From: Nitrospiraceae bacterium
GTDB taxonomy: Bacteria > Nitrospirota > Nitrospiria > Nitrospirales > Nitrospiraceae
NCBI GenBank assembly: GCA_041563675.1
Contig: JBFGRM010000001.1
Span: 1-38,844, forward strand
Reading direction: 5' to 3'
DNA length: 38,844 nt
The notes under the pieces were generated by a model, which made no database searches, had not been told where the DNA came from, and saw only the letters and a program-made list of their open reading frames with translations. This document shows, piece by piece, positions 31,806-38,844 of this stretch (positions are counted from its first letter, which is position 1; every line of letters starts with the position of its first letter). The position numbers and the translations under genes were made by a program.

Positions 31806-32576
31806 CTACATGAACTTCATGAACTTGTCCTTGGCCTCGTCCATCACCTCGGCCGTCACGCTCGTGGCGCCCTGCTCGCGCGCCAGCCGTTCGATTTCGC
31901 GCCGCGCCATCGGGCGGATGAAATCCGGAATATTATCGAGCCGCCGCTCCGCTTCCGGGGACCAGGCGATGCCGTTCGACTCGTTCTTGGAGTCGTCCAT
32001 CACTTGCAGGGTGATGCTCTTGAACCCCCGCTTGCGGGCGTAGGCTTCGACGCTGCTCTGCACCATCGGTTTTACGAAGGACGGAAGGCGATCCAACCGT
32101 TCCTTCGCATCCGGCGTCCAGGTGAAATCTGACGCGCCGCCCTGTGAGCCCGCCGACGCCCCCGTGCCGGTCAGCCCCATCTGGGCGACCATTTCCGAGA
32201 ACGGACACCCCCCACTCGACTTCTCCCCCTCCGAGGTGGTCGGAGAGGAGTTGCTCGGGGCCTCGGCGGCCGTGCTCCCGACGGGTTGCCCGCCGTGGAT
32301 TTTCTCGTTCAGATAATTGGTCATCTGATCCGCGCCGGCCAGCGCATCCTCCTTGAGCGTCCCTCTGGTCATCTCGAAGGGCTCCGCCGGCGCCGATCGA
32401 CCGCCGAGCTTGACGCCCAGGGAGCTGACCATCTGGGTTTCACCCGGGTTGGTCACCATCGAGAATTTCGCCCCGCAGGAGGGGCAGCCGAAGAAGACAC
32501 CCAGGGATCCCTCCGCGGGCTTCTCGACTTTTTCGAAGCTCATGTAGGTTTCGCAGTTGAGACAGACAAACTTCAT
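31806..32576 (-). CDS. Zinc-ribbon protein with two C-terminal PCP_red-type domains
   Basis: The N-terminus is CLNC-N17-CPSC. A Ser/Gly/Ala-rich linker contains GGCPF. The two domains are FTWTPDAKERLDRLPSFVKPMVQSSVEAYARKRGFKSIT and IAWSPEAERRLDNIPDFIRPMARREIERLAREQGATSVT. Confidence 0.8.
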   Translation of the reverse strand: MKFVCLNCETYMSFEKVEKPAEGSLGVFFGCPSCGAKFSMVTNPGETQMVSSLGVKLGGRSAPAEPFEMTRGTLKEDALAGADQMTNYLNEKIHGGQPVGSTAAEAPSNSSPTTSEGEKSSGGCPFSEMVAQMGLTGTGASAGSQGGASDFTWTPDAKERLDRLPSFVKPMVQSSVEAYARKRGFKSITLQVMDDSKNESNGIAWSPEAERRLDNIPDFIRPMARREIERLAREQGATSVTAEVMDEAKDKFMKFM

Positions 32577-32649: not shown

Positions 32650-33570
32650 TCAGAGCTTCTCGGCGAGCACTTTCTTGTAATCCAGAATCGTCGTCACCCG
32701 CTCGGCAATGTCCCGGTAGCGTTGAATGGTCGGGTAACTTTCGTCCAGCAGCGGGGTCCCTTTGTCGAAGGTCCGGGCCAGGGTGCGATCGAACGGGATC
32801 CGTCCGAGCAGGGGCACGCCCATGGCCTCGCACAGTGCGTCCGTGTTGCCCTCGAAGAGCTCGTGCTCCGATCCGCAGCTCGGGCACCGGTACGAGCTCA
32901 TGTTCTCGACCACGCCCAAGACCTTGATGCCCAGGTCGCGGGCATAGGCCACCGACTTTTGGACGACGTCGGAGGCGACCTCCGACGGGGTCGTGACCAC
33001 GATCGCGCCGGCAAGATCAGGGATGAACCCGGCGATGACCGGCGGCTTGTCGGCGGCCGCGCCCGGAGGGAGGTCGGTCAGCAGAAAGTCCAGATCACCC
33101 CAGAGAACATCGGCGAGGAATTCCCGGATCACGTTCATCTCCATCAGGCCCAGCCAGACCGGGCTGACGTCCATCGGCCCTTTCCAGCGCACCGGGGCGG
33201 CAGCCTGGAGAAAGAAGTCCATCGAGCCGACCTTGATCCCCAGCGGGCCCACCGGTGGGGTCGCGCCCTCGGGCGTCATGGTGAGCTGCTGCCCGTGCAT
33301 CCCCAGCATGCGGGGGACGCAGGGACCGTTCAAGTCCACGTCGAGGAGGCCCACGCGCTGCCCCTGGCGGGCCAGCGCGAGCGCGAGGTTCACGGTCGTC
33401 ATGCTCTTGCCGACGCCGCCCTTGCCGCTCATGACCACGAGTTTATTGCGGATCCCGGCCATGCGGCTCTGCACCTGCTGCATCTGCCCGGTGATCTGCT
33501 GGACGACCTTGGCGTCGTCGCTGTACTGGAGCCTATTGAGGATGCTCTTGAGATCCTTATCGTCTGCCAT
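32650..33570 (-). CDS. Mrp/NBP35/ApbC-family P-loop ATPase (Fe-S cluster carrier)
   Basis: The deviant Walker A is SGKGGVGKSMTTVNLA. Also LLDVDL.GP, DLPPG, and the CPSCGSEHELF cluster-bridging Cys pair. Confidence 0.9.
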   Translation of the reverse strand: MADDKDLKSILNRLQYSDDAKVVQQITGQMQQVQSRMAGIRNKLVVMSGKGGVGKSMTTVNLALALARQGQRVGLLDVDLNGPCVPRMLGMHGQQLTMTPEGATPPVGPLGIKVGSMDFFLQAAAPVRWKGPMDVSPVWLGLMEMNVIREFLADVLWGDLDFLLTDLPPGAAADKPPVIAGFIPDLAGAIVVTTPSEVASDVVQKSVAYARDLGIKVLGVVENMSSYRCPSCGSEHELFEGNTDALCEAMGVPLLGRIPFDRTLARTFDKGTPLLDESYPTIQRYRDIAERVTTILDYKKVLAEKL

Positions 33571-33653: not shown

Positions 33654-35528
33654 TCAGATCGAGTATTGGAACACCGGCTGGTCGCCGATCGCCGTCGCCA
33701 GGATGCCGCTGCGCTTGAGCTGCTCGATGACCTGCCGCGCCGCCTCGTCGAAGTCCTCCGGCCCCGCGAAGGCGAGATCGGCGTCCGGCGGAGCCGCCTC
33801 CTGACCTTTGCTCATGTGAACCGACACCACCGGGGCCGGGTAGACGAGCGTGCGAATGATCTGCTCCGCCTCCTGGTGATCGTGGCCGAACGGGTTGGTC
33901 GTCGAGATGACGATCATCCCGGTGTCAATGAGCAGTCGCGCCACCTCTCCACAGCGCCGGGCCGCCTCCGTCGACTCCGCGCTCGCATCCGCCCCCAGGT
34001 CCGCGTCCAGCCCGTGCTTCAGGTTCTCACCGTCCAGCAAGTAGGCATGGCGTCCTTCGGCCACGAGGAGGGACTCCAGCTTTCGCGCCAGAAAGGCCTT
34101 GCCGGTGTTCGCCGCCCCCGTGAAGAGCACGATGGCGGCGCGATGCCCGTAGTGGCGGGCGCGGTCTTCAGGCCGAACCTCCCCCTTGACCCATGCGAAA
34201 TCACGCTCGCGCGCCTCGTTCCGCAAGACTTCCTGTTCGTCGTGGACCAGCGCCGTGATGATGCCGCCACCGGAAATGTCGTATTCGTCCACCAGGACGA
34301 AGCGTCCGCTGTGCTCGAAGGATGTGGAAAGGTCGAACGCGATCGGGGATCTCGTGCGGATGGTGACCTCCGCCACCTCGTTGCGTTGCACGTCCCGTCT
34401 GGCCCGCTCTTCACCCAGGTTGGCCGCCGACACGATGCGATGGACGGCAGCGATCTCGCAGGCGACTTCGCGGGTTGCCAGGCGCAGGACGTAGCGTCGG
34501 CTGCCCTGTAACGGCCGCCTTCCGAGCCAGAAGACGTTGGCCTTCAACGCCGTCGACACGAGGGGGAGCGCGGCCTCATGCGAGGCGATCTCACCGCGCT
34601 CGACGAAGATCTGCTCGTCCAGCGTGACGCCGATCGACTCCCCCGCCTGCACCTCCACGGGAGGCGGCTCGATGTTGAAGGCCTCGATGCTCTTGACCAT
34701 GGCTGTCTTGTTGGAGGGCGAGAACACGAGCCGGTCGCCCACCCGCAAGCGCCCGGCGGCGATGCGGCCGGCGAGAATCCGTCGGGCGTCGAATTTGTAG
34801 ACGTCCTGCACCGGAAATCGGAGAGGCTTGTCGGCCCTGGCCGTCTCTTTCTTGAAGAGGCCTAGGCTGTCCAGCACCGTCGGCCCGCTGTACCAGGGCA
34901 TCCGCTCGCTGGGCGAGGCGATGTTGTCCCCCATCTTCGCGCTCGCGGGCAGGACGCGGTCGGGGACGACATTCAAAGACGACAGGTATTCACGGTACTC
35001 CTTCTCAATACCGTCGAAGACATCCTGCCGGTACCCCACCAGATCCATCTTGTTGACCACGACCGCCACCTGCTTGACGCCCAGAAGGGAAAGCAACAGA
35101 CCATGCCGTCTCGATTGATCCCGGACGCCTTCGAGCGCATCGATCACCAGGACCGCGGCCTCGGCTCTGGCCGCCCCCGAGACCATGTTCTTGAGGAACT
35201 CCTTGTGGCCCGGCGCATCGATGATGATGTACTGGCGTCCCCGCCATCCGAAGAACGTCCGCGCCGTATCGATCGTGATGCCTTGCTCTTGCTCTTCCAG
35301 GAAGGCGTCGAAGAGGAACGCGTATTCGAACTCCTTCCCCTGCTGCTGGCAGATCGCACGGACCTTGTCCAGCTTGCCGACCGGCAGGGAGTCCGTGTCG
35401 GCATACAGGCGTCCCAGCAGGGTCGACTTGCCGTGATCGACGTGCCCGACGATCACGATGTTCATATGCTCCGCCGCTTTTTCCTGAAGTACAGGCGTGG
35501 TTTCCGTGGTCACCGTCATCCTCTTCAC
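33654..35528 (-). CDS. cysN: Sulfate adenylyltransferase subunit 1 (CysN GTPase) fused to an APS-kinase-like C-terminal domain
   Basis: The GTPase motifs are [15 protein letters not shown] and NKMD. The C-terminal ~180 aa align to CysC but carry altered motifs: [21 protein letters not shown] and ISTTNPF. Confidence 0.9.
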
Positions 35529-35589: not shown

Positions 35590-36387
35590 CTACATGTAGC
35601 CATCTTTACGCAGCAACTCCATCCCCCGGCCCTCATCCTGGGCGCGCCCGGACCGCTCCGCCACGTTGGTCTTCCTCAGCTCCTCGATAATGTCGTCCAC
35701 GGTCCTGGCTGTGGATCGGATCGGGAACGTGCAGGGGGCGCATCCCAGGCTTCGGTATCGCGTGCCCTCGCCCTTATCCAGGTAGAGGTCGATGAAGGGA
35801 ATGCTTTCCAGTTTGATGTATTCCCAAATGTTGATCTCCGTCCAATCCAGCAACGGATGGATGCGAATGTGCGTCCCGGGTGGAAAGAACGTCTTGTACT
35901 GGTCCCAGAGCTCGGGCGGCTGATCCCGGAAATCCCAATCGCTGTTCTTGTCGCGGGGTGAAAAATACCGTTCCTTCGCCCGCGTGCCCTCCTCGTCAGC
36001 GCGCACGCCCAGAATCAGTCCCGTATAGTGCTTGTCCCTGAGCACCTGCTTGAGCCCGTCCGTCTTGAGCGCGTTGCAGCAGGTAACGCGCCCGAGGGTG
36101 TGATTCATCCCGCCGGCCAGGGCTTCCGTGTTCTTCCCGATCACCAGGTTGAGCCGCCATTCGCGCGCAAGTCGGTCGCGATACTCGATCATCGCCGGAA
36201 TCTTGTAGGTGGTGTCGATATGGATGAGCGGAAAGGGCACGTGGCCGAAGAACGCCTTCCGCGCGAGCCAGAGCAACACCGTCGAGTCTTTCCCCATGGA
36301 CCAGAGCATCGCGAGGTTGCTGAAATGTTTGTAGGCCTCACGAAGAATGTAGACGCTTTGACTTTCGAGTTGCCGAAGATGGTTCAT
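35590..36387 (-). CDS. cysD: Sulfate adenylyltransferase subunit 2
   Basis: Motifs are [31 protein letters not shown] (PP-loop), IDTTYK and YRSLGC.PCT. Confidence 0.93.
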
Positions 36388-37511
36388 CGGGCCAATGCCT
36401 CCGTCGACGTGGGATTCTGCGTGACCGGCAAGCCGCCCGGCGCCTCGCCCAGTCGGGCCGCCGCCGCGCCACCGGAACTCCGGGCGCAGCGGCCCGTCTG
36501 AAGGGTCCCGAGCTTGCGTGCCGCGGCCCCGGATTCAAGCGCATGCCGGACAATGGGAAGCGCGGCTCGAAGGGAGGCGGCTTTCCCGGACGCATAGAGG
36601 AGGTGAGCGGCGTTCAGCAGGACCCAGTCGCGCTGACCACCTCGCACCTCGTTGGTGAGCAACCGCCGGAGCAACTCCGCTTCCTTGTCCGCGGACCCGG
36701 ACGCCGGCCTGGCCATGACGCGTTCCTCCGCCGCCTCCAGTCCCACATCGCGTGGGTGAAGAGAGAACGGGGTCATGCGCTCCCCGCGCAGCTCGAGCGC
36801 CTTGGTGCCGGAGGAGATGGAGAGCTCTGACGTGCCCTCGACGCCTCGGACGATGAGGGCATGCTCCGCACGCAGCATCGTGAGGGCCTCACCGGTCTTT
36901 TCGAACTGGGCAGCCTGGGCGACGCCGATGACCTGGGCGCGCGCCCGCGCAGGATTCAGCAGGGTGGCCACCACGTGAAACACATTGCGCAAGCCGAACT
37001 CTCGGCGCAGATCGAGGAAGCGAGCCACGGGCGGGTGGTAGAGGGCGATGTCCAGGTACGCAAAGCCGAGTGAGGCGACGGCCGTAGCCGCGGCTGCGGC
37101 ATCCCCATCCACCGGGAGGCCCAACTCCCCCAGGAGCGAGCCCGGCCCGGTCCCACCGTCCGCGGCGTCATGACCGTGCATGAGGATCGTCGCGCCAGCC
37201 GAGGCCGCTGTGATGGCGGCGGCGATCGAGGCGTGAAAGGTCTCGCGTTTTTCCCCGTACCACGGAAGGTCGACGAGGGGAAGGTCGCGGGGCACGGCCA
37301 CGCGCGGGACATACTCTCGGGTCGTCGCTGTGAAGGCGGCCAGCTCCGCCACGGACTCGATCTTCACGCGCAGTCCCAGCAGCAACGCGCCCACCTGGGC
37401 GGGCGTGGCCTGCTGCTCGATCAGCATGCGCGCGGCCTGCTTCGCCTCCTCCCAGGTGAGGTCCTTGCTCGCCTTCTGTCCCTTACCGATTTTCGCGATC
37501 AGCTCGTGCAT
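36384..37511 (-). CDS. Anthranilate phosphoribosyltransferase-like protein (glycosyltransferase family 3 fold) lacking the PRPP-binding motifs
   Basis: The N-terminal helical bundle is [36 protein letters not shown]. The core aligns to TrpD, but GTGGD becomes PWYGE, KHGN becomes MHGH and G.DE becomes GTSE. The ATG shares nt 37511 with the upstream stop (TGATG), and the stop overlaps the cysD ATG (ATGA). Confidence 0.75.
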
Positions 37512-38005
37512 CAAAATGTCATCACCTGGTCCGCCGTCATGACTTCCTCTTTCCAGAAGGCCTCGGCCGCCTGCACCTCGTCCAACTCCGGGATCAGCTT
37601 GTCGATCGTCATCTCGAACAGCCCCAGGGAGCGTTGGCAGACGGAGAACTTGGCATCCCCGCGTTCCTTGATCTCACGCAGCAGGGCCGGCAGATCATCC
37701 CGTTTCTCTTCCTGCAGCATGTCGCGGATTTTCGACTCTCGCCCCTTGAACGCCTCCGAGAGAACGATGTCCCGCACCTTGTCCACGCTCAACCGTGCGA
37801 CGGCTTCGTCCCTGAACAACATGCTGACTTGGACGCCCGATTCCGCCGCGATGCGGGCAAACTCACAGGCCTGCAGGAGGTTGTTGTAGGCCCCCCGCGT
37901 CAAAATGATCGCCACCTTCTTCACGTCCTTTACCTCTTGCTCCGGCTGCGTAGGGCGCGATTCCTTTGCACGAGGCCCCGAGCCTTTCTTGAGGATGATC
38001 TTCAT
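37511..38005 (-). CDS. DsrE/DsrF-like family protein (COG2210-type, 'peroxiredoxin family' sulfur-carrier-like)
   Basis: Motifs are KKVAIILTRGAYNNLLQACEFARIAAESGVQVSMLF and the C-terminal AKFSVCQRSLGLF. ATG 38005 overlaps the cysH stop (ATGA at 38002-38005). The ORF-track extension to 38098 would overlap cysH by 97 nt. Confidence 0.6.
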   Translation of the reverse strand: MKIILKKGSGPRAKESRPTQPEQEVKDVKKVAIILTRGAYNNLLQACEFARIAAESGVQVSMLFRDEAVARLSVDKVRDIVLSEAFKGRESKIRDMLQEEKRDDLPALLREIKERGDAKFSVCQRSLGLFEMTIDKLIPELDEVQAAEAFWKEEVMTADQVMTF

Positions 38006-38712
38006 TGATGAAGCCCGCACTCGGTCTTGGGCCGGTTTTGCCAGCGGCCCGAACGGGAATCCTCTCCGGGCTCCACCGGCGCCGTGCAATGGGTGCACCC
38101 GATGCTCGGGTAGTTCCGATCGTGCAGCGGGTTGTACGGGACCTCATGGACCTGGATGTAGGCCCAGACGTCCGCGGCCGTCCACTTCGCCAAGGGGTTG
38201 ACCTTCACCAAGCCGAATTTGTGATCCCATTCGACCAGTCCCGCCTGTGCGCGCGAGGGAGCCTGGTCCCGACGAATGCCCGTGATCCACGCGTCGTAGC
38301 CACGTAGGACCCGGGACAGGGGCTCGACCTTGCGCAGGGCGCAGCAGCGGTCGGGATCACGCATCCACAAGGCCTCACCGTGCTCCCGTGCCTGCCGTTC
38401 CGGCGTCAGAAGCGACTTGACCTGCAGCACCTGCTCGGGGCGAAGGCCGTACCGTTCAATGACCCGGTCCCGTGTCGCGAGTGTCTCCGGGAACAGAAAA
38501 TCCGTGTCGAGGTAGAAGAGCGGGGTGTCCGGCTTGAGGCGGTGAATCATGTCGACCAGGACCACGTCCTCTGCCCCGAAGCTGCACGCCAGGATCACCC
38601 GCGGAGTAAAGCGCTCCAGCGCATCGGCCAGGACATCCTGTGGCTGCCGTGCTTCGAAGGAATCGCTGAGCGCCTTCAGGTCAGCTTCCGTTGGTCTCAC
38701 ATTCGTCGACAC
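38002..38712 (-). CDS. cysH: Adenylylsulfate (APS) / PAPS reductase, thioredoxin-dependent; the Fe-S-cluster subtype, which points to APS as substrate
   Basis: The PP-loop-like motif is ACSFGAEDVVL. The paired Cys motifs CC (DRCCALRK) plus CxxC (SIGCTHC) are characteristic of [4Fe-4S] APS reductases. The C-terminal catalytic motif is ECGLH. Start is GTG 38712, with GGAGA upstream. Confidence 0.9.
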   Translation of the reverse strand: MSTNVRPTEADLKALSDSFEARQPQDVLADALERFTPRVILACSFGAEDVVLVDMIHRLKPDTPLFYLDTDFLFPETLATRDRVIERYGLRPEQVLQVKSLLTPERQAREHGEALWMRDPDRCCALRKVEPLSRVLRGYDAWITGIRRDQAPSRAQAGLVEWDHKFGLVKVNPLAKWTAADVWAYIQVHEVPYNPLHDRNYPSIGCTHCTAPVEPGEDSRSGRWQNRPKTECGLHQ

Positions 38713-38750: not shown

Positions 38751-38844
38751 CTACCCCTCGACCTTCTCGACGAGGACCTTGTAGTGCTCGGCGCTCGGTT
38801 CGAGCGGTTCTTGCAGAAGGACCTTGTGTCCGTCGTTCTGCAAG
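38751..38844 (-). CDS. 3' end of an unidentified CDS (31 codons, stop TAG at 38751-38753) immediately upstream of cysH
   Basis: The minus strand translates as ...LQNDGHKVLLQEPLEPSAEHYKVLVEKVEG*. It lies 38 nt from the cysH start, so it is probably co-transcribed. A sulfite reductase would fit the context, but nothing in the 31 residues proves it. Confidence 0.4.
   Translation of the reverse strand, partial: LQNDGHKVLLQEPLEPSAEHYKVLVEKVEG

What the first reader, a model, noticed from the sequence alone, without database searches (positions are those of the whole stretch)
37511..38005. DsrE-like putative sulfur-carrier gene overlapping the cysH stop codon
DsrE/TusD-type proteins carry sulfur as a persulfide or thiosulfonate on a conserved Cys, in dissimilatory sulfur oxidation and in tRNA thiolation. 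They are not part of canonical assimilatory sulfate reduction. This one has two candidate Cys, in LLQACEFARI and in KFSVCQRS. It is coupled to an APS reductase whose catalytic cycle passes through an enzyme-Cys-S-sulfonate (the ECGLH Cys).

One speculative possibility is direct transfer of the sulfo group or sulfite to this protein, which would channel toxic sulfite to the reductase. An unusual 30-aa basic/Pro-rich N-terminal segment (MKIILKKGSGPRAKESRPTQPEQEVKDVKK) precedes the domain.
Basis: inference. Interest (0 to 1): 0.65.

Follow-up and report, generated by a model that had tools for sequence, protein, structure and literature searches.

The report
Accessory DsrE-type sulfur carrier, sulfate operon
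A small cysteine-bearing sulfur-carrier protein of the DsrE family is built into the sulfate-assimilation operon of Nitrospira-type bacteria, next to a sulfite reductase that carries its own TusA carrier domain, which suggests that sulfur is passed along bound to protein; about half of the related genera have since lost the gene.

Summary
Window 37511-38005 (- strand) is a real gene under purifying selection (median dN/dS 0.12). It passes the Pfam DsrE and DrsE_2 thresholds. Its model is closest to the solved DsrE2B and DsrE3A structures.

- **Cysteines:** Cys123 is invariant (66/66 loci) and aligns with the family's sulfur-binding Cys. Cys47 is kept in 62/65 loci and is absent from distant relatives.
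- **Start codon:** the ATGA overlap with cysH and the 27-residue N-terminal tail exist only in the window's own small clade. Elsewhere the gene starts at a GTG/ATG equal to Val28, giving 137 aa, a median 77 nt after cysH.
- **New context:** the operon is rrf2, sir, cysH, dsrE-like, trpD-like, cysD, cysNC, mrp. Its sulfite reductase carries a HEPN-like domain, a flexible linker and a TusA domain. DsrE proteins are the known partners of TusA.
- **Downstream pathway:** the genome also has a ThiS/CysM/E1/JAB thiocarboxylate cluster whose E1 enzymes lack rhodanese domains.
- **Distribution:** the gene is ancestral to the operon but was lost at least 2-4 times. It is present in 19 of 39 genera, and the operon is otherwise unchanged. 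It is therefore accessory.

The most likely role is a protein-bound sulfur relay partner of Sir-TusA. This scan has seen the same gene in other genomes. I found no paper describing it.

The parts
37511..38005 (-). DsrE-like gene, long form (164 aa, ATG overlapping the cysH stop; stop codon TGA at 37513-37511)
   Evidence: ORF and translation. Pfam DsrE 32 bits and DrsE_2 28.5 bits, both above threshold. AlphaFold2 pLDDT 82, best PDB matches 2qs7 and 3pnx. dN/dS 0.12.
37511..37924 (-). DsrE-like gene, short form (137 aa) from the family's conserved start GTG (Val28, 37924-37922)
   Evidence: The start codon at this position is conserved in 61 loci (GTG 52, ATG 8, TTG 1). Upstream frames are closed by stops in most loci. 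Most database homologues are 137 aa.
37933..37936 (-). GAGG Shine-Dalgarno-like motif 8 nt upstream of the GTG (Val28) start
   Evidence: The 16 nt upstream of the start read GCAAGAGGTAAAGGAC. An SD-like motif occurs in 58/61 loci.
37925..38005 (-). Clade-specific 27-codon N-terminal extension: MKIILK followed by a Ser/Pro/charged linker
   Evidence: Open in every one of the clade's sequences examined: window, L002-L004 and L113-L115 at DNA level, and the 164-aa database proteins. Absent from the other loci. Residues 1-22 have pLDDT below 50. The first 6 codons show synonymous and I/V/L changes.
37637..37639 (-). Codon of Cys123 (Cys96 in the short form), the family's sulfur-binding cysteine position
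   Evidence: Invariant in 66/66 loci. Aligns with the conserved Cys of 2qs7 (VFACSTTM) and 3pnx. Kept in distant relatives.
37865..37867 (-). Codon of Cys47 (Cys20 in the short form), a second cysteine in helix 1 specific to the cys-operon clade
   Evidence: Cys in 62/65 loci; Leu in L024, L031 and L032. Absent from distant relatives outside cys operons.
38002..38712 (-). cysH, the Fe-S-type APS reductase (CC...CxxC and ECGLH motifs)
   Evidence: Pfam PAPS_reduct 179.6 bits. NCBIfam APS_reductase TIGR02055 at 235.5 bits against a 235.3 threshold. All six Cys are conserved in DsrE-plus and DsrE-minus operons.
38751..38844 (-). 3' end (last 30 codons plus TAG stop) of the 830-aa sulfite reductase fused to a HEPN-like domain, a linker and a TusA domain; the gene continues on contig C30 (L068 22-2514)
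   Evidence: Contig overlap. ORF. Pfam NIR_SIR, NIR_SIR_ferr and TusA at 56 bits. The fusion is found in 61/61 family genomes. Model and fold matches.
36384..37511 (-). trpD-like paralogue with degenerate PRPP motifs; its start overlaps the DsrE-like stop
   Evidence: Pfam Glycos_transf_3. GTGGD has become PWY-GE and KHGN has become MHGH in the alignment to 4yi7. A canonical TrpD lies elsewhere in 5/5 complete genomes.
35590..36387 (-). cysD
   Evidence: NCBIfam PRK05253 at 356 bits.
33654..35528 (-). cysN fused to an APS-kinase-like domain
   Evidence: Pfam GTP_EFTU, plus APS_kinase covering only profile positions 2-99 of 152.
32650..33570 (-). mrp/apbC Fe-S cluster carrier ATPase, the operon tail in many loci
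   Evidence: Pfam ParA/NUBPL at 248 bits. Syntenic in the loci.

Best explanation
The gene encodes a small, probably homo-oligomeric DsrE2/DsrE3-like sulfur-carrier protein. It is an accessory part of the Nitrospirales assimilatory sulfate-reduction operon.

**Shown**
- It has the DsrE fold.
- The family's sulfur-binding cysteine (Cys123) is invariant.
- It is under purifying selection.
- It always sits in the same operon as a sulfite reductase whose C-terminus carries a TusA carrier domain on a flexible 30-45-residue linker.

**Inferred**
- Cys123 exchanges a covalently bound sulfur atom (a persulfide) with the TusA cysteine, as TusA and DsrE proteins do in sulfur oxidisers and in tRNA thiolation.
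- The pair works on the product side of sulfite reductase. It hands reduced sulfur in protein-bound form towards the genome's ThiS-like carriers. Those carriers are activated by E1 enzymes that lack their usual rhodanese sulfur-donor domain, and they feed CysM-type and ThrC-like synthases.
- Cys47, gained when the family entered the cys operon, would act as a resolving thiol.

The gene has been lost repeatedly while TusA, CysH and the thiocarboxylate genes stayed. It therefore improves or buffers the relay rather than being required for it.
For: **Family and fold**
- Pfam hits pass threshold.
- The AlphaFold2 model has pLDDT 82. Foldseek matches 2qs7 (DsrE2B, E 4e-11), 3pnx, 3mc3 (DsrE3A), 2hy5 and 2d1p.
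- The profile search against PDB sequences aligns Cys123 with the conserved Cys of 2qs7 and 3pnx.

**Conservation**
- Cys123 is kept in 66/66 loci and Cys47 in 62/65. dN/dS is 0.12.

**Synteny**
- All 66 species-level loci show cysH, dsrE-like, trpD-like, cysD, cysNC.
- Wherever the contig reaches far enough (57 of 66 loci), rrf2 and/or the sulfite-reductase core plus TusA lie upstream.

**TusA on the sulfite reductase**
- Pfam TusA scores 56 bits. Its Cys is kept in 75/75 sequences. The motif is CP[ML]N in 72/73.
- The model shows a HEPN-like bundle, a disordered linker and a TusA fold.

**Ancestral context is a sulfur relay**
- Relatives at 34-36% identity in other Nitrospirota sit beside a DsrE/DsrF/DsrH-like trio and a weak TusA-like ORF.

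**Downstream acceptors in this genome**
- C5:3447-8739 encodes ThiS, CysM-like, ThiF, ThrC-like, ThiS, NIL, ThiF and JAB. Both E1 enzymes are 271-273 aa and hit only ThiF.
- Iyer et al. 2006 (PMC1779556) state that in such sulfate-assimilation neighbourhoods the E1 always lacks rhodanese and a SirA/TusA protein is always present.

**Established biochemistry**
- Sulfur transfer from DsrEFH (DsrE-Cys78) to DsrC is shown in PMC3397948. Persulfide or thiosulfonate transfer between TusA and DsrE-type proteins is shown in PMC4175335 and PMC11094781.
Against: - No direct evidence of any interaction or cargo.
- Sulfite reductase releases sulfide (S2-). Loading a thiol as a persulfide needs either a 4-electron, DsrC-like reaction or an oxidant, and neither is known for assimilatory Sir.
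- TusA's cysteine sits on a globular surface, not on an arm that could reach the sirohaem.
- The gene is absent from 34 of 61 family genomes sampled, some of them incomplete. By genus it was found in 19 of 39.
- In 15 DsrE-minus operons inspected, everything else is unchanged. TusA therefore has a DsrE-independent function.
- The JAB marker of the thiocarboxylate pathway is found in 58/61 genomes regardless of DsrE, so there is no co-variation.
- DsrE2B, the closest solved relative, reacted with no sulfur compound in vitro (PMC4175335).
- Three lineages replace Cys47 by Leu.
- The distance between Cys47 and Cys123 in the model could not be read with these tools.
Confidence: 0.4

Rival explanations
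1. Substrate-side hand-off. The S-sulfocysteine on the flexible C-terminal ECGLH tail of APS reductase is attacked by the DsrE-like thiol(s). The sulfo group or sulfite is then passed, through thiolysis and sulfitolysis steps, to the TusA domain tethered to sulfite reductase. Sulfite would never be free in the cytoplasm.
For: - The gene lies directly after cysH in all 66 loci, with an ATGA overlap in the window's clade.
- CysH forms a covalent thiosulfonate that is normally released by a protein thiol, thioredoxin (PMC1175818; bioRxiv 10.64898/2026.09.04.749436).
- TusA-family and DsrE3A cysteines carry -S-SO3- or -S-S-SO3- groups, and DsrE3A passes its group to TusA (PMC4175335; PMC11073785).
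- A second cysteine (Cys47) appeared when the family joined the cys operon. This fits thiol-disulfide chemistry.
- TusA sits on a flexible linker on Sir.
Against: - In most lineages the gene starts 50-320 nt after cysH with its own SD. It is more tightly coupled to the trpD-like gene.
- Repeated clean loss has left CysH and TusA cysteines unchanged.
- M. cuprina DsrE3A, DsrE2B and TusA did not react with sulfite.
- Direct sulfo transfer between thiols is chemically unfavoured compared with disulfide formation plus sulfite release.
Confidence: 0.2
2. Sulfane-sulfur buffer or sensor. The protein traps reactive sulfur species (persulfides or sulfide leaking from Sir) on Cys123 to protect the cell, or it reports sulfur status. 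It is not on the main flux path.
For: - The gene is dispensable and has been lost many times.
- DsrE4-type relatives have been proposed to detoxify reactive sulfur species (PMC11094781).
- The operon is headed by an Rrf2-type regulator.
- The genome holds other DsrE/TusA sets for housekeeping relays.
Against: - Strict position inside the biosynthetic operon, frequent stop/start overlap with the next gene, and strong purifying selection fit a pathway component better than a general detoxifier.
- There is no DNA-binding or signalling domain.
Confidence: 0.15
3. Dedicated thiol-disulfide reductant. The Cys47/Cys123 pair acts like a thioredoxin substitute. It either releases sulfite from CysH or recycles an oxidised TusA or HEPN-domain cysteine.
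For: - Exactly two cysteines occur in 50 of 60 orthologues.
- The family carries a legacy 'peroxiredoxin family protein' (COG2210) label in JGI records.
- No thioredoxin gene is in the operon.
Against: - There is no CxxC motif or thioredoxin/peroxiredoxin fold.
- The two cysteines are 76 residues apart, on helix 1 and after strand 3, and proximity is untested.
- Three lineages lack Cys47.
- The conserved Cys of the DsrE family is documented as a sulfur binder, not as a redox pair.
Confidence: 0.1
4. A decaying passenger gene with no present function in this lineage.
For: Loss in about half of the genera and at least two pseudogenised copies (frameshifted in L065/L110, shortened in L064/L109).
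Against: - dN/dS is 0.12, and 37 columns are invariant in the 29-sequence alignment.
- The reading frame is intact and the start and SD are conserved in the window.
Confidence: 0.03

Closest known systems
DsrE2B (SSO1126, PDB 2QS7; Mcup_0682) and DsrE3A (SSO1125, PDB 3MC3; Mcup_0681) of Sulfolobales hdr/tusA clusters
   Same: - Best sequence and fold match: profile E 3.5e-8 to 2qs7, target-normalised TM 0.85.
- Same length class (about 137-160 aa) and the DrsE_2-type insertion.
- The conserved Cys sits at the same position.
- Genomic partnership with a TusA module.
   Different: - It sits in an assimilatory sulfate-reduction operon, not a dissimilatory hdr/dsr cluster.
- The TusA partner is fused to a sulfite reductase.
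- It has an extra conserved Cys in helix 1.
- It scores only 20 bits against the NCBIfam DsrE2 model, whose cut-off is 210.
- Only 93 clusters at 50% identity in 1.84 billion proteins match its profile at E <= 0.001.
TusA to DsrEFH to DsrC to rDsrAB relay of sulfur oxidisers, and TusA to TusBCD to TusE in tRNA thiolation
   Same: A TusA module and a DsrE-fold protein with an essential Cys are associated with a sirohaem sulfite reductase. The logic is a cysteine-to-cysteine sulfur relay.
   Different: - There are no DsrF/DsrH partners and no DsrC/TusE.
- The reductase is the monomeric assimilatory ferredoxin type.
- The pathway direction is reductive and assimilatory.
- The gene is dispensable, whereas DsrE Cys78 is essential in A. 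vinosum (PMC3397948).
Sulfate-assimilation neighbourhoods with SirA/TusA, ThiS/MoaD-like carrier, rhodanese-less E1 and JAB (Iyer, Burroughs & Aravind 2006, Table 1 row 4e); the CysO-CysM-Mec pathway of M. tuberculosis
   Same: - This genome has the same parts: TusA, two ThiS-like genes, two rhodanese-less E1 genes, JAB, and CysM-like and ThrC-like synthases.
- TusA is the predicted stand-in for rhodanese.
   Different: - That description contains no DsrE-family member.
- Here TusA is fused to Sir.
- The carrier genes lie on another contig (C5) rather than in the same operon.
YeeE-YeeD (TsuA-TsuB) thiosulfate uptake system
   Same: The Sir TusA domain's best Foldseek hit is the YeeD part of 8j4c. 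The YeeD cysteine carries -S-S-, -S-SO3- and -S-S2O3- groups (PMC11073785).
   Different: YeeE was found in only 6 of 61 family genomes, mostly ones lacking the DsrE-like gene. No transporter is in the operon.

Membership tests
DsrE/DsrF-like superfamily (Pfam PF02635 / PF13686) | Sequence matches the family HMM above the curated threshold | tested here: met
   PF02635 scores 32.0 bits against 22.7, covering profile positions 1-116 of 116. PF13686 scores 28.5 bits against 25.
DsrE/DsrF-like superfamily (Pfam PF02635 / PF13686) | Rossmann-like alpha/beta DsrE fold | tested here: met
   The AlphaFold2 model has pLDDT 82. Foldseek gives probability 1.00 to 2qs7, 3pnx, 3mc3, 2hy5_B and 2d1p_E.
DsrE/DsrF-like superfamily (Pfam PF02635 / PF13686) | Single conserved sulfur-binding Cys after the central strand (DsrE Cys78, HdDsrE3C Cys84) | tested here: met
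   Cys123 is invariant in 66/66 loci. It aligns with the Cys of 2qs7 and 3pnx.
DsrE/DsrF-like superfamily (Pfam PF02635 / PF13686) | Binds or transfers sulfane sulfur or thiosulfonate on that Cys | not testable with these tools
   Needs protein mass spectrometry and transfer assays.
DsrE/DsrF-like superfamily (Pfam PF02635 / PF13686) | Homotrimer or hexamer assembly | not testable with these tools
   Only single-chain prediction was available.
DsrE2 sulfur carrier (NCBIfam NF047629 equivalog) | Score above the equivalog cut-off | tested here: not met
   20.3 bits against a cut-off of 210, with only a partial match.
DsrEFH / TusBCD heterohexamer subunit | Adjacent DsrF/TusC and DsrH/TusB paralogues | tested here: not met
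   The neighbours are cysH and a trpD-like gene in all 66 loci. A separate TusBCD-like trio lies on contig C143.
Peroxiredoxin family (legacy COG2210 label in JGI records) | Peroxiredoxin or thioredoxin-fold domain, or CxxC/peroxidatic Cys motif | tested here: not met
   No AhpC/Redoxin/thioredoxin hit in Pfam at E <= 0.1. No such fold appears among the Foldseek matches.
TusA/SirA family (for the partner domain on Sir) | Pfam TusA match plus the conserved Cys of the CPxP motif | tested here: met
   PF01206 scores 56 bits. The Cys is kept in 75/75 sequences. The motif is the variant CP[ML]N in 72/73. The fold matches E. coli TusA 3lvj_C and YeeD 8j4c.

The most novel reading that the evidence does not exclude
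Nitrospirales run a fully protein-bound sulfate-assimilation pathway. This would be a modern version of the long-abandoned 'bound sulfite / bound sulfide' scheme.

1. The sulfo group leaves the CysH tail onto the two-cysteine DsrE-like carrier.
2. It passes to the TusA arm of sulfite reductase.
3. It is reduced while tethered, in a DsrC-like 4- or 6-electron reaction, to a TusA persulfide.
4. It is delivered to E1-activated ThiS-like carriers for cysteine and homocysteine synthesis.

Neither free sulfite nor free sulfide would be released. Lineages that lost the DsrE-like gene would fall back on diffusible sulfite for the first hand-off.
Probability: 0.08. Interest if true: 0.85.

Novelty: new variant of a known kind. 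Interest (0 to 1): 0.5.

Why it matters
DsrE/TusA relays are known from dissimilatory sulfur oxidation and from tRNA and cofactor thiolation. They are not known from assimilatory sulfate reduction.

Here a distinct, narrowly distributed DsrE subfamily with a second conserved cysteine is built into the cys operon of globally important nitrite oxidisers, beside a sulfite reductase that carries its own TusA arm. If the pair moves sulfur covalently, several open points become testable:

- why these aerobes fuse a carrier to Sir;
- how rhodanese-less E1/ThiS systems obtain sulfur;
- whether an assimilatory sirohaem reductase can hand sulfur to a protein thiol, as DsrAB does to DsrC.

The repeated natural losses provide ready-made comparison strains. 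The claim is limited by the gene's dispensability and by the complete lack of biochemical data.

Tried and rejected
1. **The 195-aa ORF from GTG 38098 as the true gene.** Rejected. It runs inside cysH in another frame and no homologue supports it.
2. **The ATGA overlap as a family-wide sign of coupling to cysH.** Rejected. It occurs only in the window's clade.
3. **Link to thiosulfate import.** YeeE (PF04143) was found in only 6 of 61 family genomes, mostly DsrE-minus ones. No support.
4. **Co-variation with the thiocarboxylate pathway.** JAB is present in 58/61 genomes regardless of DsrE. Uninformative.
5. **Changes in CysH, TusA or HEPN-domain cysteines in DsrE-minus operons.** None found.
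6. **Literature.** Searches for a described Sir-TusA fusion or a cys-operon DsrE found nothing. A search for the old 'thiosulfonate reductase / APS sulfotransferase' literature also found nothing in the held library.
8. **Cys47-Cys123 distance.** The structure tool returns no coordinates, so the distance could not be measured.
9. **Cys47 at the structural position of DsrH-Cys20.** This idea rests on my memory of the DsrH sequence only. It was not tested and is not used as evidence.
Full report
**1. What is in the sequence.**

On the - strand, 37511-38005 is an open frame of 164 codons. Its ATG (38005-38003) shares three bases with the TGA of the upstream gene (38004-38002), forming ATGA.

The upstream gene (38002-38712) is an APS reductase of the iron-sulfur type. 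It scores 179.6 bits on PAPS_reduct and sits at threshold on TIGR02055. It has the CC...CxxC and ECGLH motifs.

The downstream gene (36384-37511) starts on the last base of the DsrE-like stop codon. It is followed by cysD, cysN fused to an APS-kinase-like domain, mrp/apbC, and a Zn-ribbon protein with two PCP_red domains.

**2. Is it a DsrE-family protein?**

Yes.
- Pfam DsrE scores 32.0 bits against a threshold of 22.7, covering the full profile. DrsE_2 scores 28.5 bits against 25.
- A profile built from 29 homologues finds only two solved relatives by sequence. These are 2qs7 (E 3.5e-8) and 3pnx (E 5e-4). In both, Cys123 aligns with their conserved cysteine.
- The AlphaFold2 model has mean pLDDT 82 and pTM 0.74. 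Its best structural matches are 2qs7 (target-normalised TM 0.85), 3pnx, 3mc3, DsrEFH 2hy5 and TusBCD 2d1p.
- According to PMC11094781 and PMC4175335, 2qs7 is DsrE2B and 3mc3 is DsrE3A.
- It is not a DsrE2 equivalog: NF047629 scores 20 bits against a cut-off of 210.
- The family is narrow. Only 93 clusters at 50% identity among 1.84 billion proteins match the profile at E <= 0.001, and 29 match at E <= 1e-10.

**3. The real start and the 'unusual N-terminus'.**

Most homologues are 137 aa and begin MKK or VKK. In 61 loci the codon at the position of Val28 is GTG (52), ATG (8) or TTG (1). An SD-like motif lies upstream in 58 of them. In most loci the upstream frame is closed by stops after 3-30 codons and has no start. 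In the window that start is GTG 37924-37922, with GAGG 8 nt upstream.

The 27-codon extension that reaches back to the cysH stop is open in every one of the clade's sequences examined. At DNA level these are the window, L002-L004 and L113-L115; the 164-aa database proteins P0003-P0033 show the same.

Within that clade:
- The first six codons differ only by synonymous or I/V/L changes, while the middle is highly variable. This fits a translated short strand plus a disordered linker.
- AlphaFold2 gives residues 1-22 pLDDT below 50.
- Gene callers chose the short form for two 88-91% identical relatives.

My reading is that the conserved protein is the 137-aa form. The long form may be an additional, clade-specific product. 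The extension is not a defining feature.

Across the family, the cysH stop lies a median 77 nt before the start. The stop overlaps or abuts the trpD-like start (modal -4, median 14 nt).

**4. Conservation.**

- Cys123 is invariant (66/66 loci). Cys47 is Cys in 62 of 65 and Leu in one small clade.
- Fifty of 60 orthologues contain exactly these two cysteines.
- More distant relatives keep the Cys123 position but lack Cys47.
- Median pairwise dN/dS is 0.12.

**5. Context beyond the window.**

The window is contig C1 of a 2.34-Mb, 84%-complete assembly. Its end overlaps contig C30 by 115 nt.

C30 shows that the gene ending at window 38751 is an 830-aa sulfite reductase (NIR_SIR and NIR_SIR_ferr). 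It is extended by a helical domain with a weak HEPN match, a variable Pro/Ala/Ser/Thr linker and a TusA domain (PF01206, 56 bits). An Rrf2 regulator lies upstream of it.
- The model of the last 262 residues shows a helical bundle, 30 disordered residues and a TusA fold.
- Foldseek matches HEPN proteins for the bundle. For the TusA fold it matches E. coli TusA and the YeeD part of the YeeE-YeeD complex.
- The TusA cysteine is invariant (75/75), in a variant CP[ML]N motif (72/73).
- Two further cysteines in the helical domain are also invariant.
- The fusion is present in 61 of 61 Nitrospiraceae genomes sampled and in at least 949 protein clusters. Databases name it only 'sulfite reductase (ferredoxin)', 'TusA family protein' or 'HEPN domain-containing protein'.

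**6. Synteny and evolutionary pattern.**

A scan of one genome per species (185,579 species) found 66 loci, all in Nitrospirales. All show cysH, dsrE-like, trpD-like, cysD, cysNC. Where the contig allows, rrf2 and sir-TusA lie upstream and mrp downstream.

The gene is not universal.
- In an even sample of the family it is present in 27 of 61 genomes and 19 of 39 genera.
- Fifteen DsrE-minus operons from at least a dozen genera are otherwise identical, with cysH and the trpD-like gene only 6-45 nt apart.
- On a tree of CysH, TrpD-like and CysD, the minus state is nested inside the plus state. It needs at least four changes, of which two are forced by well-supported branches. The gene is therefore ancestral to the operon and has been lost repeatedly.
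- Two copies look pseudogenised: L065/L110 is split by a frameshift and L064/L109 is shortened.
- One minus genome (G059) is a single 4,317,083-bp contig.

Relatives at 34-36% identity in two other Nitrospirota families do not sit in cys operons. They lie beside three DsrE/DsrF/DsrH-like genes and a weak TusA-like ORF. The family therefore came from a sulfur-relay context.

**7. Other sulfur-relay parts in this genome.**

- A stand-alone tusA plus a 184-aa DrsE_2 gene lie on C157. A TusBCD-like trio lies on C143. The cys-operon gene is thus a third, distinct DsrE-type paralogue.
- C5:3447-8739 encodes ThiS, a CysM-like PLP enzyme, ThiF, a ThrC-like PLP enzyme, ThiS/MoaD, NIL, ThiF and a JAB protease. 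Both E1 enzymes consist of the ThiF domain alone.
- This matches the neighbourhood class described by Iyer, Burroughs and Aravind 2006 (PMC1779556). There the E1 always lacks rhodanese and a SirA/TusA protein is always present and predicted to replace it. That paper does not mention DsrE.
- The lead to that paper came from an earlier follow-up of this scan on another genome. I checked the text and the gene content myself.
- The JAB marker is present in 58 of 61 family genomes whether or not the DsrE-like gene is there.

**8. Mechanism.**

Shown:
- the fold;
- the invariant family cysteine;
- purifying selection;
- strict co-location with a Sir that carries a tethered TusA domain;
- an origin among relay proteins;
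- dispensability.

Established for the families:
- TusA and DsrE-type proteins pass persulfide or thiosulfonate sulfur between their conserved cysteines (PMC4175335, PMC11094781). DsrEFH (DsrE-Cys78) passes sulfur to DsrC (PMC3397948).
- A TusA-family cysteine can carry -S-S-, -S-SO3- and -S-S2O3- groups (PMC11073785).
- CysH forms a Cys-S-SO3- intermediate on a flexible tail, which a protein thiol resolves (PMC1175818).

Inferred: the DsrE-like protein exchanges a sulfur group with the Sir TusA arm.

I favour the product side (confidence 0.4). Comparative evidence ties TusA in such operons to rhodanese-less E1/ThiS carriers, and the canonical cargo of the family is sulfane sulfur. Cys47 would then resolve an acyl-disulfide or mixed disulfide.

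The chemical weak point is how sulfide from an assimilatory Sir would become a persulfide.

The TusA arm strengthens it. It is weakened by the lack of general coupling to cysH, by repeated loss, and by the reported inertness of DsrE2B, DsrE3A and TusA towards sulfite.

Other rivals are a buffer or sensor role (0.15), a reductant role (0.1) and a functionless remnant (0.03).

**9. Novelty and score.**

The protein is annotated generically ('DsrE family protein', 'peroxiredoxin family protein'). I found no study of it. Earlier notes of this scan recorded the same gene and the Sir-TusA fusion in other Nitrospira-type genomes, so it is not new to the scan.

It is a new variant of a known kind: a DsrE/TusA pairing recruited into assimilatory sulfate reduction, with a clade-specific second cysteine.

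Interest is 0.5. It is a clear and conserved anomaly that makes a testable link between sulfite reductase and protein-bound sulfur. However, the gene is accessory, the mechanism is inferred only, and the surrounding TusA-thiocarboxylate logic was anticipated in 2006.

**10. Limits.**

- There were no coordinates for the model and no multimer prediction.
- The genome is 84% complete.
- Presence and absence counts are samples of the family, not a census.

Noticed in passing
window 38751-38844, continuing on L068 22-2514 (G000:C30): The sulfite reductase of the operon is 830 aa: a NIR_SIR core, a HEPN-like helical domain with two invariant Cys (GPGECAGG and ..AC..), a variable Pro/Ala/Ser/Thr linker, and a TusA domain with a variant CP[ML]N motif. 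It is present in 61/61 family genomes sampled.
   Followed up: yes
window 36384-37511: A trpD-like paralogue has degenerate PRPP/Mg motifs (GTGGD replaced by PWY-GE, KHGN by MHGH). It is universal in the operon even where the DsrE-like gene is lost. A canonical TrpD (410-428 bits) lies elsewhere in 5/5 complete genomes, against 178-211 bits for the cys-operon copy. Its start often overlaps the DsrE-like stop.
   Followed up: partly
G000:C5:3447-8739 (L122 447-5739): An eight-gene cluster: ThiS, CysM-like, ThiF, ThrC-like (with an N-terminal Zn ribbon), ThiS/MoaD, NIL, ThiF, JAB. This is a protein-thiocarboxylate route to cysteine and probably homocysteine. Both E1 enzymes lack a rhodanese domain. 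The first ThiS ends ...GGGR, so it would need trimming.
   Followed up: partly
G000:C157:2995-3832 and G000:C143:1574-2523: Further sulfur-relay sets in the same genome: an 81-aa TusA next to a 184-aa DrsE_2-type protein, and a TusD/TusC/TusB-like trio directly upstream of dnaA.
   Followed up: no
L095 7473-9398 and L096 6504-8483: Relatives of the DsrE-like protein at 34-36% identity in other Nitrospirota families sit beside three DsrE/DsrF/DsrH-like genes and a weak TusA-like ORF. In L096 an FAD_binding_2 flavoprotein is also nearby. This is an undescribed five-gene relay cassette.
   Followed up: partly
L065 8001-8418 (= L110 6320-6737) and L064 8001-8381 (= L109 6013-6393): Two DsrE-like copies look degraded: one is split by a frameshift into overlapping pieces and one is shortened. 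This fits ongoing loss.
   Followed up: partly
window 33654-34200: The APS-kinase-like domain fused to CysN matches only profile positions 2-99 of 152 of Pfam APS_kinase. This fits a non-catalytic domain in an APS-reductase (not PAPS) pathway.
   Followed up: no
window 31806-32576: The last gene of the operon encodes a 256-aa protein with two PCP_red domains (PF08369, 124 bits) after a Cys-rich N-terminus. Its role in sulfate assimilation is unknown.
   Followed up: partly
window 37982-38005 versus 37901-37924: The start of the N-terminal extension (MKIILKKG) resembles the start of the conserved domain (VKKVAIILTRG). The extension may have arisen by partial duplication of the gene's 5' end. 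This has not been tested.
   Followed up: no
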